From Candidatus Nanohaloarchaea archaeon (GTDB taxonomy: Archaea; Nanohalarchaeota; Nanosalinia; Nanosalinales; Nanosalinaceae), in the NCBI GenBank assembly GCA_041640075.1, contig JBEQAY010000023.1:1-17707 (forward strand): DNA of 17,707 bases, given 5' to 3'. A program made the position numbers. Position 1 is the stretch's first letter; every line of letters begins with the position of its first letter. Positions 3,001-9,000 of the stretch are shown here, piece by piece.

Positions 3001-6000
3001 CATCTACACCAGCTTCCCTCAGATACTTTGCTCCTAGGCTTGCCGCGAAACTGGCTGTCCCACAACCGGTCAGGTATACATCTTCTGCATCTCTGATCAT
3101 CTTTACTGCTTTCTGTAGGTCGCTTTTATCCTGATAGGCAGCTCGCTTAACTGTTTTTGGCTGTTCCTTAATCTCTTTCTCCATGAAGTGATCGTGACCC
3201 TCTTTTGAAGCCTGCTCCGCGTCCCAGTCGATCTCCTGTACCTCGCGTTCAACTTTTTCACCGGAGTTGTAGACCTCGTATCCGTCTTCAATTATAGCAT
3301 AGTCATCGTCTTCCAGGAAAATCGCTTTCTTGGTGTGCTCAAGGAAAGGTGTTACGTCGGAAGCCAGGAAGAACTCGTCTTCGTCGATTCCAAGGACTAG
3401 TGGAGAGCCTTTTCTGAATGCAATCATCTCTCCAGAGTTAAGCATAGCTGCTACAGCATAGGAACCTTCAAGTCTTTCCATAACCCTGTGAACTGCTTTC
3501 GCAATTTCTTCGTTTCTCTCCAGTTCTCTTTCTAGTAGGTGTGGAATTACTTCTGTATCTGTTTCGGACTTAAATTCAACGTTTAGGTCGTCTTTGATCC
3601 TCTGGTAGTTTTCGATTATTCCGTTGTGTACGACTGCGACTTTTTCCTTGTGTGAAACGTGTGGGTGTGCGTTTTCCTCTGTTACTCCTCCGTGTGTTGC
3701 CCATCTTGTGTGGCCTATGCCGGAGGTCCCGTCGATTTCAGGGTTTGCGACTTCGTCGACTTCTCCGACTGCTTTTTCTACTTTTATTGTTGGATTTCCT
3801 GCTGTCGCTATTCCTGCGGAGTCGTAGCCTCTGTACTCAAGTCTCTTCAGACCTTTGTAGACTTTTTCAGCTGCTTCATCGTCGCCGTGGTAACCTATGA
3901 TCCCGCACATCGCTGGACAAGAATTACACTCGAATCCTTTTAAAGACTTCCTGAAGACGACGAAAACCAGTTAGACAGAGGTTTTAACGGATGTTGAGTA
4001 TTTCAGGTAACTCTTTTAATCAAGGAACTATTTCACCCTCAAGAGGTAAAAGATTTATTATACCGGTTGTAAAATGGTTTGATATGTACAAAGTCATCCG
4101 TGAAAACGAGGACGGGACAGAGAAACTTGAAGCGGTAAAACTCGATGCGGAGAAAATAAAGGCACTTTCTGACTCGACAAGGAGAAATATACTTGAGAAG
4201 CTTGCAGAGCAGCCGTCCTATCCACGGGAAGTCTCACGTGAACTTGGACTGGAGAAACAGAAATCATACTACCACTTCGACAAACTGGAGAAAGCAGGTC
4301 TGATAGAGGAGGAGAGAACAGAGAATGTCTCAGGGGGTTCGGCAAAATACTTCAGATCGTCCTCGCCGACTTACGTCCTCGACCTGGGAACTGAGGGAAA
4401 AAAGGTTCCATGGCGCACCAACCAGGAAAAAACAGAGAAGTTCCTGGGATCGCTCATAGAAAACGGTGAGATGAAAGGAGCTATAGTTGTAGGTTCACCG
4501 GATCAGCATGGACCGGACCAGGTACAGGCAAAGGACGGTCATCTGGCAGGAGAGGTAGGTATCAAACTTGGAAACTACTGTAAAGCAGAAAATCCAGCTG
4601 TCAAACTTGACACAGAGATCTTCGGAAACTCAGGTTTCCACCAGAGCATGGTGCTGGTCGGTGGGGTTCTAACTAACACGGTCACGAAAAAATTCAATGA
4701 GAACTTTCCGGCCAGCTTCGAAGGTGAAAACTTCCCGTACAGGGAGATCAGGACGCCGGAAAACACGTACAGTGAAGACACTATTGGGGTAGTTGCGAAG
4801 ACAGAGAATCCTGAAGACCCGGAAAAGGATATCTTCATGGTGGCTGGTGTCAGGAATCAGGGTACTGAGGCAGCGGTCAGAGCCTTCAAAAACCTGGAAG
4901 ACATAGTTGAAGACTACGGGGACGGGGAGTTCTACCGTGTCGTCAGAGGACTTGACATGGATGGAGACGGGGAGATAGACGACTACGAAGTGGTAGAATG
5001 ACCGCAAAAGGAAAAGATAGAGACGACTGGATGGTATTCCAGCAGGACGTTCTAGACGTACTTAGACAGTACCAGGGCTACTTCGACTACTTTGAACGAG
5101 TTGGCAGCCTCAGCGATGACTCACGCCCGGATTTCGTGTCAAGGATCACGCGTGAAGACAGGAAAGAGGTCTGGGTAGTCGACGCGAAGAAGAAACCGGA
5201 GCTTGATGACGAAGACCGTAACAGGATGAGGAAATACCTGGATATGCTTGAATCTAACCCTATTGACCTAGGACTGGAGATAAGCGAACTATCAGAATAC
5301 GAATTCAGAGGAATATTTGTCACAAGCCGTGGAAACATCCAGTCTGATAACTTTGAGCAGCTAAAGTTCTCAAACCTGCATCAGTTCCTTAAGAGAGAGC
5401 TCGTGTACACTGAGACAGATAAGGTTGTCAGAGACGTGGCTAAAATGGCTGAGAGAAAACAGCTTTCGCAGAGCCAGGCCCGTCTATTATTCAGAAGTTT
5501 GAAACCGTTTGAAAGAGTACGTGAGAAAGCTCTTCAGACACTTGAAAATATAGAAAATACTTACACTGGTTTCAAGCTTGAAAAACCTCCTTTTGACAGA
5601 GAAATTCCTGTTGAAGCCAGATTAACTCATGAAGATCGTGGAAAAGTTTTCATGATAGATATCCCGTACTCTAGAGATGCTCTGGAAGAAGTGGATGCCA
5701 AGGTTGAGGAGATAAAAAACGCGGTTGATGAGCCTGATAAAGAAGTCTTCTTCGCTGCCATCAACACTTTCAGCGACGAAACAGATTCAAACTACATCTA
5801 CGGTCTTGAAGAGTTCGAGGAAAAGATTTCGGAGACCTCAAGGGTGCTTTCGCCTGAGAAAGTTGCTCAAATGTTCAGTCCAAAAGTTGCCACAGAACAG
5901 AACTGGGAGGACGGATACCTGGAGATAAATGACTCACGTGGACTGGGTTTCCGTCTAAGAGTTTACACCCAGGACGACATACGTTTCCGCGTGGAGGCCG

Positions 6001-9000
6001 AGATGGATGAGAAAGCCGTCGAGGAGATGAAGGATCGCATGCTCAACTCCCGTAAAGAATTTGGAGAGCTTGAGGATAGAAGATTCAGGCTGGAGTTCAA
6101 GATTACTGAAGATGGCGAGATATCCTATTCAGGTAAGAAACAGTCGATGCAGAACTTCAGGGATGAGGTCAGAACAGTTTATCAGTCCTCTGTTAATCCT
6201 GTGCTGAGTAAAAACGTGACAGCTACTATCGACTGATGTTTCCTGGCCGTAAATAATTTATGACGTTGAAGATATTTTTTACCTGTAAATTAGATGAATA
6301 AACAGGAGTACAGAGAGCTGAAGCGACTCGAAAGAGTTGTCGAAAAACTTGACAGAGACCTTGACTCCGTCATCGTTGAGGGTTTCGATGACCGTCAGGT
6401 TATGAGAGAACTTGGCTTCACCGGCAAAATATTTCTATCTGCTGAAACATCTGTAGAAGATCTTGTGGAAGATGTTGAACGGGGCTCAGAGAAAACAGCT
6501 GTGCTCACAGATTTTGATTCCCACGGAAAAGAGCAGAACCGGAAAATCCGGCACGCACTGCAGGGCCGCGTGAAAAACTCCATCAGTGCACGCGAAGAAT
6601 TCGGCCTCCAGCTCACAGCCAATGACAGGCATGCAGTCGAAGATGTCAGACCATTGTTCGAAGATAAAGATCAGAAATTTGTCGATGCCGCCCTCAGTCG
6701 GTTATTCACTTCTCTGTGAACTGTTACAGATTTAATATCCTAATCTGATAATCTATCGATCTTTGCAGCCATGATAAAATCGTTCTCATGCAAACCCTCT
6801 ACTTCTGAAGTAGTCATACGGACTTTGAGCTCTCCATAGGATAGCATCAGGTCCGGATAGTGTTCCTCCTTCATAGCCACGTCTGAAATATCATTAACAA
6901 GCTCTAGTGCCTCTCCATGCTTGGGAAAATGGAAGATGCGGGCAAGATAAGATCCATCTACAACTTTCCAGTCGCTATCCAGTTGTGCCATGTAATGTGT
7001 CAGGTCATCTCCATCCATAGCTTCCTCGTCCTGGTCAACTACCCTGCATCGTTTCTCGGAGAGATGAGTCATACATGAAAATCAGTAGAACCTGAATTAA
7101 ACTTTACCGGTCCGCTACTGGAACTGGCTTAGAGAGGTCTGATTCTTCTTCAAGGCCTTTGCATTGTACCCGAGCTCACGTGAGAGATGTGACGCAAGCT
7201 CCTCATCAAACCCGTGCTGAGTATAAACCTCTTCAGGGTCAACAGCCTGTACCAGTTCGACAAGTTCCTCGAAATCACAGTGATCCGACAGGACAAATGT
7301 CTCATCGTAACCACCACGGTACTTGAAAGACTCCTGCGCCGCCCAACCGGAAAAACCGGCCTTCAAGCCACCGAACTTCTCCAAGTTCTTCTCCATCCAG
7401 TCCGCCTGAGAACTCCTCGAAGGAGCTATCAAAATGGCGTTTTCCTCCTTCAACTTTTTCTTGTTCTCGCCGTAGGCTTCCGCCGGGAAACTCATTTCTG
7501 AAGCTTTCTCCACGGCATCGTTCATCTTTTTGACTGCCCCGTGCGCCAGAACCGGCCTCTCAGCCACATCATCGATAATCTTCTGAATCTTCTGCGCCTT
7601 ACCCAGAGAATAACCGAAGAGGTACAGTGGCTGATCACGATTATCCGCTACAAAATCCTTTATCCTGTTCTCAATACTTTTCTGATCTGGAAAAGTGTAA
7701 GCTGGGATGCCGTAAGTTGACTCAACTACAAGAACATCCGCACTCGGGGGCTGAAAGCCTTCAATATACGCACGATCTCTCATAGAAACATCGCCGGTGT
7801 AAAGGTATTTTTTCTCTTCACCAAACAAAGCAGCGGAAGAACCCAGGATATGACCAGACGGAATCAACTCGACATCATGATTCTCATGCCTCTGAACCTT
7901 TTCATCTGTCCGGGCCTCAGCCAGCCTCGCTGTCAAATCAGAACATACAACCTGGGAATCTGACTGATGCAGGTGATCCATATGTGCATGAGAAACAATA
8001 TTCACGTCACCGGTAGAACTCCTGGAATCCGCTACAAACTTTCTATCACCTACTTCAAAATGGATACCATCCTTCTCCCGGATCATCAAAAACTAAATGT
8101 TCGATAAAAGATTAGTAAGTGCTGTTTTTCTAACTCTTTTTCAGAAGTTTTCCAGTTTCATGTTCCCGCCGTACATCTGTTTTCTGATCTGTTCTCTGTC
8201 TATTCCAGTAGGTGAGAGGATGCTCTCCGACGCACGGATCAGCAGTGTCTTGTAGTGATCCACGTCATAGTCCTGAGTTTCCTCAAACTCAAGTCTTACA
8301 CGCCCCATTCCTTCCTGTTCATCATTCACTACAACATATCTGACGCTTTGACCGGGTTTATATTCAATCCCATGATATTCAGCTCTTTCCAAAGCCGCAA
8401 CAGTACGGTTGTTAACTGTGTAGGCTTCCAAGGGCTTTGTGATTCTGGTTTCAGTAACTAAGTCATTGAAATCTACATTACCTCTATCAAGTTGCTTAAA
8501 CTTTTTCCTTAGAACACTATAGACATCTCCGGAACTATGATCGTTGTCAAATGCTTCAATCATTTCTTCCTGAGCCTGTTTAACAAACTCGCATGTTGAA
8601 CTCTGCTCTACTTCTATACCTGCTGTTTTGAAACTTCCTTCACCTTTCTTTCCAAAGTAACGGTTTAATGTACCTACCTTGGCACCTTTACCAGCTCTAG
8701 GCACAAATGAAACCCATTCAAAATCATGCTCAAACTCCAAATCAATACCTACATGTCTACTCACTTCTTCACAAACTTCAGATAGCTCAGTAGCATCTTC
8801 TACTCTTTTTGAAACCCATATACTGTCTATAATACCGTGCTTCACTTCCCAACCATTTTCCTCGAATATCTCTTTCGATTCTCTCATAATTTTCCTGGCA
8901 TAGGCATTGATAGCTTGGTGACATTCAATAGCGCCATAAGATGCATGTGCATGACCCATATACCCGAAGCAAGTCACTAATAGCCATTTTATAGCATCTA

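What a model noticed while it worked through the whole genome (the two positions that open the first line are those of the whole stretch)
4084..6719. Conserved three-gene module around a FokI/Bax1-like PD-(D/E)xK nuclease with a novel 300-residue body
g00825 (412 aa, no family hit) is kept in almost every genome of the family between an HTH protein (g00824) and a small PRK04017-like protein (g00826); its first ~110 residues model as a restriction-endonuclease-like (PD-(D/E)xK) domain closest to the FokI cleavage domain and the archaeal repair nuclease Bax1, with invariant D45, E57, D62 and K64, while the remaining 300 residues match nothing solved. I read the triad as a housekeeping DNA-cutting machine (repair, recombination or chromosome resolution) specific to Nanohaloarchaea, with g00824 as the DNA-targeting subunit. 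It would add a new nuclease family to a lineage whose repair toolkit looks very incomplete.
Evidence so far: g00825 found in 17 of 19 Nanosalinaceae genomes incl. G000 (12 of 12 high-quality), 47-58% identity; homologs of g00824 and g00826 flank it in 15 of 15 relatives' loci examined, g00823/g00827 in 0 and 1. No Pfam (E<=0.05), NCBIfam (E<=0.01) or PHROG (E<=1e-3) hit. 15-sequence alignment: invariant R43-P-D45, E57-x-W59, D62-A-K64-x-K66. AF2 pLDDT 80.3. Foldseek/PDB: no match at E<=1e-3; local matches of 100-150 columns to FokI 2fok/1fok (prob 1.00/0.99, rmsd 4.7/6.2), Bax1 in the XPB-Bax1 complex 6p4w (prob 0.93), R.BspD6I, R2 retrotransposon endonuclease, Cap4 and MspJI nuclease domains. 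g00826 hits NCBIfam PRK04017 'hypothetical protein' models at E 2e-10, below their cut-offs; g00824 has HT [...]
(Added by a program. Inside this text positions count along the whole contig: contig position 1 is position 1 of the stretch shown here. "Call 12" and the like, gene names such as g00115 and contig names such as C1 are that model's own, and its searches are not shown. The text may have been shortened before it was handed on; [...] marks where a part breaks off. The agent that wrote the report below was given it as the finding of a first reader that could run no searches.)

Follow-up and report, generated by a model that had tools for sequence, protein, structure and literature searches.

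The report
Two-lobed orphan nuclease of nanohaloarchaea
A family of tiny salt-loving symbiotic archaea keeps a single gene for what looks like a stand-alone DNA-cutting enzyme, with one working and one disabled cutting domain; its two neighbours are unrelated older genes, so it is a new enzyme family and not a three-part machine.

Summary
g00825 (4998-6236, 412 aa) is real, single-copy and intact: 42 of 50 family genomes, 0 of 20 genomes of other families in the phylum, genus-congruent tree, purifying selection. A published orthologue is transcribed. Residues 8-140 carry a complete PD-(D/E)xK site (D45, D62, K64). The '300-residue novel body' is not novel. Residues 165-283 are a second restriction-endonuclease-fold domain without the catalytic lysine (best match TIP26, Z 10.0; the Bax1 match lies here). 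Residues 284-412 weakly resemble the MotA/YjbR double-wing DNA-binding fold (Z 7.0). The three-gene module does not hold. g00824 (ArsR HTH + S_layer_C) is paired head-to-head with glmS in 32 of 32 family loci and in 28 of 32 loci lacking the nuclease, including Bathyarchaeia and Nitrososphaeraceae, with operator-like palindromes: probably a hexosamine-pathway regulator. g00826 is a widespread small Toprim protein, directly adjacent in only 17 of 36 loci. Best reading: a self-contained nuclease, probably domesticated from a restriction-type enzyme, that entered a conserved core block in the family's ancestor. Activity and substrate are untested; housekeeping versus defence is unresolved. Verdict: new architecture in a known superfamily, moderate interest.

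The parts
4998..6236 (+). g00825: three-domain protein, predicted stand-alone PD-(D/E)xK nuclease (412 aa)
5019..5417 (+). Domain 1 (aa 8-140): restriction-endonuclease fold with intact motif R43-P-D45 ... D62-A-K64-x-K66 and second-helix D73-xx-R76-M-xx-Y80; helix-1 Q15 and D17 invariant
   Evidence: FokI Z 9.4, R.BspD6I2 Z 8.9; column counts; weak PDDEXK_7 hits in 34 of 98 members, below cut-off
5418..5507 (+). Basic helical linker (aa 141-170), the most constrained segment; 8 K/R against 3 D/E in an otherwise acidic protein
   Evidence: pN 0.050 against 0.076-0.151 for the domains; charge counts; helices 140-152 and 158-188
5490..5846 (+). Domain 2 (aa 165-283): second restriction-endonuclease-fold domain; P-V-D/E206 and D221 kept, catalytic Lys position is P223; H211 invariant; predicted inactive
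   Evidence: TIP26 Z 10.0, McrC 8.5, Can2 8.5, Bax1 8.4; profile alignment to domain 1 in register but weak, probability 2%; counts
5847..6233 (+). Domain 3 (aa 284-412): alpha/beta domain; best match is the T4 MotA C-terminal double-wing DNA-binding domain; weak
   Evidence: modelled alone, pLDDT 89.2; 1kaf Z 7.0, rmsd 2.7 over 89; tied with aminotransferase small domains in the wide search; Foldseek E>=0.1
4084..5001 (+). g00824: ArsR-type winged HTH fused to an S_layer_C-like domain; probable regulator of the divergent glmS; probably co-transcribed with g00825 but not a dedicated partner
   Evidence: Pfam HTH_20 E 2.6e-10, S_layer_C E 3.4e-9; glmS pairing
6294..6719 (+). g00826: small stand-alone Toprim-motif protein (PRK04017-like; orthologues annotated TOPRIM / RNase M5-like); independent of the nuclease
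   Evidence: E29, D33, D73, D75 in 31 of 31 rows; 1t6t E 7.5e-5; distribution; annotation
2189..3910 (-). glmS (taken as g00823), conserved divergent neighbour of g00824
   Evidence: NCBIfam TIGR01135 E 6.8e-189
4045..4067 (.). Operator-like imperfect palindrome GGTAAAA-N6-TTATACC(GGT) over the g00824 promoter
   Evidence: sequence; motif recurrence against shuffles; pattern chosen after inspection
3967..3990 (.). Second operator-like palindrome upstream of the TATA-like element in front of glmS

Best explanation
g00825 is a self-contained, metal-dependent DNA nuclease. Shown: a three-domain layout (intact PD-(D/E)xK domain, basic helical linker, second domain of the same fold without the catalytic lysine, C-terminal alpha/beta domain), single copy, vertical inheritance, purifying selection, and neighbours with separate histories. 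Inferred: D45, D62 and K64 cut a phosphodiester bond with Mg2+/Mn2+. The linker, the disabled domain and the double-wing-like domain hold and select the substrate. With one active site per chain it most likely nicks or cuts branched or otherwise unusual DNA, like active/inactive nuclease pairs such as RecB/RecC (inactive RecC: PMC3424549 passage) or XPF-ERCC1 (recalled). Also inferred: the gene came from a restriction-type enzyme, entered the core block behind the glmS regulator in the family's ancestor, is read from that regulator's promoter, and now does a useful but dispensable genome-maintenance job. g00824 regulates glmS, and g00826 is an unrelated Toprim protein. Odds by step: not a three-gene machine about 0.85; domain layout about 0.85; catalytically active about 0.75; maintenance role about 0.4.
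For: Fold matches by residue range. D62, K64, K66, D73, R43, Q15 and D17 are in 98 of 98 rows; D45 is acidic in 98 of 98; P at the Lys-equivalent position of domain 2 in 96 of 98. One locus in each of 42 of 50 genomes; the split in G011 spans an assembly gap, G048 is at a contig end, and the G044 pieces lie on two contigs. 9 of 9 genera with two or more rows are monophyletic in the quick tree of 36 rows. pN 0.113 against pS 0.711 over 8 within-genus pairs. No homologue in viral contigs, phage or plasmid records; no consistent PADLOC hit among 16 members. No strongly avoided 4-6-mer in the genome. The orthologue SVXNc_0506 is transcribed at RPKM 385, next to 343 for the HTH gene (PMC10266531 Table_1). 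g00824 and g00826 are independent of it.
Against: No activity or substrate is shown. The nearest folds for domain 1 are Type IIS restriction nucleases, and the only sequence signal is the McrC-associated PDDEXK_7 family (34 of 98 members, best 17.9 bits against a cut-off of 22.1); both fit defence as well. The gene is missing at an intact locus in G009 and G041 and from 20 of 20 genomes of sister families, so it is not essential to the lineage. NucS and an Hjc-like gene are present, so no obvious gap needs filling. The domain 3 match is at noise level (Z 6.4-7.0). The g00824-g00825 junction is tight in 37 of 37 loci, which leaves some functional link open. pS is near saturation, so the selection ratio is rough.
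Confidence: 0.45

Rival explanations
1. Orphan modification-dependent (Type IV-like) restriction nuclease: domain 1 cuts, domains 2-3 sense modified bases in viral or host DNA, and no methyltransferase is needed.
For: FokI/BspD6I-like domain 1; weak PDDEXK_7 signal. Domain 3 resembles YjbR/MotA, and YjbR is listed as a structural relative (Z 4.9) of the McrB methylcytosine-reading domain (PMC3424535 passage). END nucleases are Type IIS-like, lack a methyltransferase and use an inactive enzyme domain as sensor (PMC12191111 abstract). No DNA methyltransferase is among the conserved neighbours.
Against: Fixed core locus, genus-congruent tree and about 85% retention are unlike the patchy spread of defence genes (established knowledge). 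No copies on mobile elements. McrB-N itself is not among the rows listed for domain 3.
Confidence: 0.25
2. Transcription-linked factor: the TIP26-like domain 2 binds TBP or another protein, and the nuclease site is secondary; it is co-expressed with the ArsR regulator because they act on the same promoters.
For: The best structural match overall is Tk-TIP26 (Z 10.0), described as a TBP-interacting PD-(D/E)xK-fold family (PMC3424549 passage). Domain 3 best matches a transcription activator's DNA-binding domain. The junction with g00824 is tight.
Against: Identity to TIP26 is 7%, and the other domain 2 hits are within 1.5 Z. Conservation peaks at the domain 1 catalytic residues. g00824 pairs with glmS across phyla without g00825.
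Confidence: 0.12
3. RNA-processing nuclease, clustered with a Toprim (RNase M5-like) protein and a beta-CASP nuclease.
For: Toprim and beta-CASP genes are each in 18 of 20 long loci. Published annotations call the orthologues RNase M5-like and a predicted RNA-processing exonuclease.
Against: Top fold matches are DNA nucleases. The beta-CASP gene is on the opposite strand. The Toprim gene has other neighbours in sister families.
Confidence: 0.1
4. One reading: a three-subunit DNA-cutting machine with g00824 as targeting subunit and g00826 as accessory.
For: Same strand; HTH adjacent in 37 of 37 loci; Toprim within the locus in 32 of 36; similar RPKM for the HTH and nuclease orthologues.
Against: The three genes have different distributions. 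glmS (32 of 32), a beta-lactamase-fold gene (18 of the 19 long loci with upstream DNA) and beta-CASP are conserved alike, so this is a wider syntenic block. An opposite-strand gene splits the supposed operon in 13 of 36 loci, and the Toprim orthologue is expressed at a third of the level in such a genome (RPKM 114). The nuclease is missing between intact neighbours in G009.
Confidence: 0.07

Closest known systems
FokI / BspD6I Type IIS cleavage domains
   Same: Domain 1 fold (Z 9.4 and 8.9) and PD...D-x-K active site
   Different: The nuclease domain is N-terminal, there is no FokI-type recognition domain and no conserved cognate DNA methyltransferase nearby; identity 8-15%
Tk-TIP26 (2czr), TBP-interacting protein of Thermococcales
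   Same: Domain 2 matches its residues 6-98 (Z 10.0, rmsd 2.2)
   Different: 7% identity; g00825 adds an intact nuclease domain and a different C-terminal domain; TBP binding untested
Bax1 (XPB partner)
   Same: Nuclease fold aligns at Z 8.4
   Different: The match is to the disabled domain 2; no helicase gene among conserved neighbours; the rest of Bax1 is not matched
McrC / PDDEXK_7 (PF04411)
   Same: Weak sequence signal over residues about 10-79 in 34 of 98 members; fold Z 8.5 (domain 2) and 6.7-6.9 (domain 1)
   Different: Below the Pfam cut-off; no room for an N-terminal DUF2357 domain; no McrB neighbour
T4 MotA C-terminal domain / YjbR double-wing fold
   Same: Top or tied-top match for domain 3 in three searches; YdhG, YjbR and PSPTO_3016 also listed
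   Different: Z 7.0 or lower, 2% identity, tied with aminotransferase small domains; DNA binding untested
END nucleases (PMC12191111)
   Same: Works-like analogy: Type IIS-like nuclease, no methyltransferase, inactive enzyme domain fused
   Different: Their sensor is an inactive EndoIII and they sit in defence islands; here the inactive domain has a restriction-endonuclease fold and the gene sits in a core locus

Membership tests
PD-(D/E)xK superfamily (domain 1) | [quoted passage not shown] | tested here: met
   Model secondary structure; FokI Z 9.4 over 123 residues; definition in PMC3424549 passage
PD-(D/E)xK superfamily (domain 1) | Catalytic D at the start of core strand 2 and D/E-x-K on strand 3 | tested here: met
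   D45 (D 95, E 3 of 98), D62 98 of 98, K64 98 of 98; positions fit strands 46-51 and 56-64
PD-(D/E)xK superfamily (domain 1) | Acidic residue from helix 1 | tested here: inconclusive
   Q15 and D17 invariant; which one faces the site was not measured
PD-(D/E)xK superfamily (domain 1) | Metal-dependent phosphodiesterase activity | not testable with these tools
   needs an assay
Active PD-(D/E)xK nuclease (domain 2) | D/E-x-K motif | tested here: not met
   D221-I-P223; P in 96 of 98 rows; register; a migrated lysine (for example K235) is not excluded
Type IIS restriction-modification (FokI-like) | Cognate DNA methyltransferase as conserved neighbour | tested here: not met
   Conserved neighbours in 20 long loci are glmS, HTH, PIMT, Toprim, beta-CASP and others; a large 1159-1271 aa gene, RM-like by eye, lies about 5 kb away in 2 of 20
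XPB-Bax1 | Adjacent XPB helicase and intact Bax1 nuclease domain | tested here: not met
   No helicase among conserved neighbours; Bax1 aligns to the Lys-less domain 2
McrC / PDDEXK_7 | Pfam gathering score | tested here: not met
   best 17.9 bits against 22.1
McrC / PDDEXK_7 | N-terminal DUF2357 and McrB in the operon | tested here: not met
   Nuclease domain starts at about residue 8; no AAA+ gene among conserved neighbours. The genome-wide AAA_5 search was uninformative
TIP26 | TBP binding | not tested
MotA/YjbR double-wing domain (domain 3) | Fold match above background | tested here: inconclusive
   Z 7.0 and 6.4; the tool gives 7-8 as a typical best Z for models without a clear match
Toprim domain (g00826) | Conserved E after strand 1 and DxD motif (definition recalled) | tested here: met
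   E29, D73, D75 in 31 of 31 rows; orthologues annotated TOPRIM in PMC10443357 supplements
ArsR-type HTH regulator (g00824) | Winged HTH domain | tested here: met
   HTH_20 and HTH_5 above cut-off; PDB ArsR-like hits

The most novel reading that the evidence does not exclude
g00825 is a domesticated single-chain active/inactive nuclease pair that reads a DNA modification or structure through its disabled second domain and double-wing domain. It lets these ectosymbionts tell their own DNA from host or viral DNA and cut the latter, for example to salvage nucleotides from the haloarchaeal host: a restriction-derived enzyme fixed as a core gene of a symbiotic lifestyle. At the same locus g00824 would be an undescribed regulator of UDP-GlcNAc synthesis shared by distant archaeal phyla, using an S-layer-like domain as sensor.
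Probability: 0.12. Interest if true: 0.75.

Novelty: new variant of a known kind. Interest (0 to 1): 0.42.

Why it matters
It gives a fold and a testable active site to a core hypothetical protein of the main nanohaloarchaeal family; its orthologues are annotated only as 'hypothetical protein' in two cultivated species. I did not find the layout (intact nuclease domain, disabled copy of the fold, probable DNA-binding domain) among solved structures or in my paper searches. If it selects modified or foreign DNA, it bears on how these symbionts handle host and viral DNA. The side result, a likely glmS regulator shared by nanohaloarchaea, Bathyarchaeia and Nitrososphaeraceae with candidate operators, rests on firmer comparative evidence and is easy to test.

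Tried and rejected
Complex prediction g00824 + g00825: no verdict, score 0.00, no evidence either way. Sequencing-run search: no RNA holder listed. ESM Atlas: no hit at 0.9 or above for the whole protein (best 0.87; PDDEXK_18 cluster 0.84) or for domain 3. PDB sequence search with the profile: nothing. Viral fold library: only generic nuclease-fold matches. Metagenome scan with P0135 found nothing; the second scan gave L133 and one family-type locus. Two marginal hits among 401 genomes (G325, G342) are, by their sequences, a cysteine desulfurase and a sulfate-activation enzyme, and were rejected. No diverged nuclease was found beside the HTH or Toprim genes of sister families with full and per-domain profiles. 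Replacement of NucS or Hjc was rejected because both are present. Restriction-site avoidance: none strong. The AAA_5 search for McrB was uninformative. Pfam scan of domain 3: nothing consistent. The HTH tree did not finish. Paper searches showed no paper on this family or on the glmS regulator in their listings; subscription papers are not covered, and the TIP26 structure paper is not held. Look-ups of earlier scan findings returned nothing.

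
Full report
**Observation.** g00825 has no Pfam or NCBIfam match at E<=0.1. It is found once in 42 of 50 genomes of the family (21 of 23 high-quality). Named homologues are from Nanosalina, Nanohalobium, Nanohalovita and unclassified Nanohaloarchaea; one is labelled Aenigmatarchaeota. It is in 0 of 20 genomes of the four other families of the phylum and in none of the other genomes of a 401-genome sample once two marginal hits were inspected and rejected. Of the 8 family genomes without it, 6 also lack the HTH and Toprim orthologues, and the 5 of these I tested also lack glmS, so the block is probably unassembled there. In G009 and G041 the locus is continuous and the gene is missing. 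A search of 1.84 billion representatives gave 28 hits. They include distant relatives (P0135 and P0143 full length, P0146 a 226-aa piece; later P0289-P0292) at 18-30% identity, with E in place of D45. One lies on a 33% GC contig (L133) with no HTH gene upstream. Their taxa are unknown.

**Anatomy.** The model from 98 sequences has pLDDT 86.3 and pTM 0.66. Alignment to 48,161 solved chains shows two separate regions with the restriction-endonuclease fold (repeated). Residues 7-140 match FokI (Z 9.4, rmsd 3.2, 123 aligned), R.BspD6I2 (8.9), Hje/Hjc (7.6, 6.9) and NucS (7.5). Residues 164-283 match TIP26 (Z 10.0, rmsd 2.2, 90), McrC (8.5), Can2 (8.5) and Bax1 (8.4). So the Bax1 resemblance belongs to the second domain, and the body is not without a known fold. 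In domain 1, Q15, D17, R43, D62, K64, K66 and D73 are in 98 of 98 rows and D45 is D or E in all; E57 varies in 3 rows and is not part of the canonical triad (motif as described in PMC3424549 passages). In domain 2 the equivalent stretch reads P-V-D/E206 ... D221-I-P223. A profile alignment puts D62 on D221 and K64 on P223, but with only 2% probability, so internal duplication is a suggestion, not a result. Domain 3, folded alone (pLDDT 89.2), has the T4 MotA double-wing domain as top or tied-top match (Z 7.0, rmsd 2.7 over 89; Z 6.4 tied with aminotransferase small domains; Foldseek E 0.12), with YdhG, YjbR and PSPTO_3016 lower down. That is within the tool's stated noise range and is a lead only. 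The only sequence-level family signal is PDDEXK_7, in 34 of 98 members, always below cut-off.

**The module.** I examined loci of 38 of the 41 relatives that carry the gene. The HTH gene is adjacent in 37 of 37 with upstream DNA, and glmS lies beyond it in 32 of 32 with room. The Toprim gene is directly adjacent in 17 of 36, separated in 15 (13 by an opposite-strand PIMT gene) and absent from the locus in 4. In 20 long loci a beta-lactamase-fold gene and a beta-CASP gene are each kept in 18. The triad is therefore a slice of a conserved block of about seven genes.

g00824 is an ArsR HTH fused to an S_layer_C-like domain. Full-length orthologues are in most genomes of the sister families and in Bathyarchaeia and Nitrososphaeraceae. 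In 32 such loci, none with the nuclease, glmS is divergent and adjacent in 28; three of the other four have under 300 bases upstream. In several, phosphoglucosamine-mutase-like and nucleotidyltransferase-like genes lie on the other side (named by eye from sequence). The intergenic region carries palindromes: ACCGGT in 22 of 33 family regions (shuffle mean 1.4, maximum 4) and TAAAA-N5-7-TTTTA with up to one mismatch in 25 of 33 (5.5, maximum 11), 8 of 12 sister-family regions (3.8, maximum 8, not above the shuffles) and 8 of 10 distant regions (2.8, maximum 6). The patterns were chosen after looking and kin are not independent. This points to a glmS regulator.

g00826 has invariant Toprim-type acidic residues and matches 1t6t at E 7.5e-5 (that 1t6t is a Toprim protein is recalled). 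It is in 16 of 20 sister-family genomes, beside other genes, and in 0 of 5 genomes of genus g3, where the nuclease is in 3.

**Inheritance and expression.** In a quick maximum-likelihood tree of 36 rows (2 of 38 loci dropped by the filter for stops, ambiguous bases, frame or short length), all 9 genera with two or more rows are clades. Over 8 within-genus pairs pN is 0.113 and pS 0.711; domain 1 (0.076) and the basic linker (0.050) are the most constrained. No homologue was found in viral contigs, phage or plasmid records, and there is no consistent PADLOC match. In Ca. Nanohalococcus occultus the same gene order is annotated glmS, ArsR/S-layer-like regulator, hypothetical protein (SVXNc_0506), PIMT, TOPRIM/RNase M5-like, with RPKM 2178, 343, 385, 0 and 114 (PMC10266531 Table_1: rows and part 4 of 8). 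BNXNv_0604 is likewise 'hypothetical' (PMC10443357 supplement rows). I judged these as orthologues by position and motifs by eye. These species may be among the genomes counted, so they are not independent. NucS is in 45 of 49 relatives and a weak Hjc-like ORF in 31 of 49, so g00825 does not replace either.

**Mechanism.** Most likely a stand-alone nuclease with one working site per chain, in which the basic linker, the disabled domain and domain 3 select the substrate. Inactive copies of this fold retained for nucleic-acid binding are proposed in PMC11090510 (passages). The inheritance pattern favours genome maintenance (about 0.45 overall). The fold neighbours and the lack of a methyltransferase keep modification-dependent defence open (0.25; analogies in the PMC12191111 abstract and in PMC3424535 and PMC7641849 passages). 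A TIP26-like regulatory role (0.12), an RNA substrate (0.10) and the three-subunit machine (0.07) are less likely. Against my reading: nothing was assayed, the gene is dispensable in two genomes, and domain 3 is unresolved. PMC11001535 (passages) reports added lambda-DNA cleavage by lysates containing a nanohaloarchaeon and ascribes it to its restriction enzyme(s); it does not bear on this gene specifically.

**Novelty.** The superfamily is well known; this family and its domain layout were not found in the libraries or paper listings searched. Supplements of preprints were closed and most subscription papers are not covered, so earlier mention cannot be excluded. Verdict: new variant of a known kind, interest 0.42.

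Noticed in passing
window 2189-5001; L081-L112: The ArsR-HTH/S_layer_C gene is head-to-head with glmS across nanohaloarchaeal families, Bathyarchaeia and Nitrososphaeraceae, often with glmM-like and glmU-like genes on its other side: a likely undescribed archaeal hexosamine-pathway regulator.
   Followed up: partly
window 3967-3990 and 4045-4067: Two operator-like palindromes, one at each divergent promoter, recur in relatives.
   Followed up: partly
G000:C5:3960-4718: A second, more distant homologue of g00824 (E 6e-45, covering most of the profile) is in this genome and in at least four others.
   Followed up: no
window 8141-11183 (-): PolB2-type polymerase with two small upstream genes (232 and 88 aa), the usual PolB2 operon layout (recalled); present in only 1 of 20 relatives' long loci.
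   Followed up: no
window 7115-8089 (-): beta-CASP nuclease (TIGR04122-like, below cut-off) is conserved convergent to the Toprim gene in 18 of 20 long loci.
   Followed up: partly
L063, L066, L069, L071, L126 and others: A PIMT gene lies next to the Toprim gene in many family genomes and in one sister-family genome (L126), suggesting an older pairing; it is absent from this window.
   Followed up: partly
L112 (G009) 4300-4350; L109/L139 (G041): The nuclease gene is cleanly absent at an intact locus; in G041 the Toprim gene is absent too.
   Followed up: yes
L133; P0135, P0289-P0292, P0146: Distant homologues with R-P/V-E in place of R-P-D; those measured are less acidic than g00825; taxon unknown.
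   Followed up: partly
for example G016:C3:8523-8825: A conserved 160-200 aa ORF with a marginal Hjc match occurs across the phylum; probably a divergent resolvase; no match in G000 with this model.
   Followed up: no
window 14104-15237 (+): Methyltransferase-small-domain protein with two weak repeats; its SAM-binding motif looks degenerate by eye.
   Followed up: no
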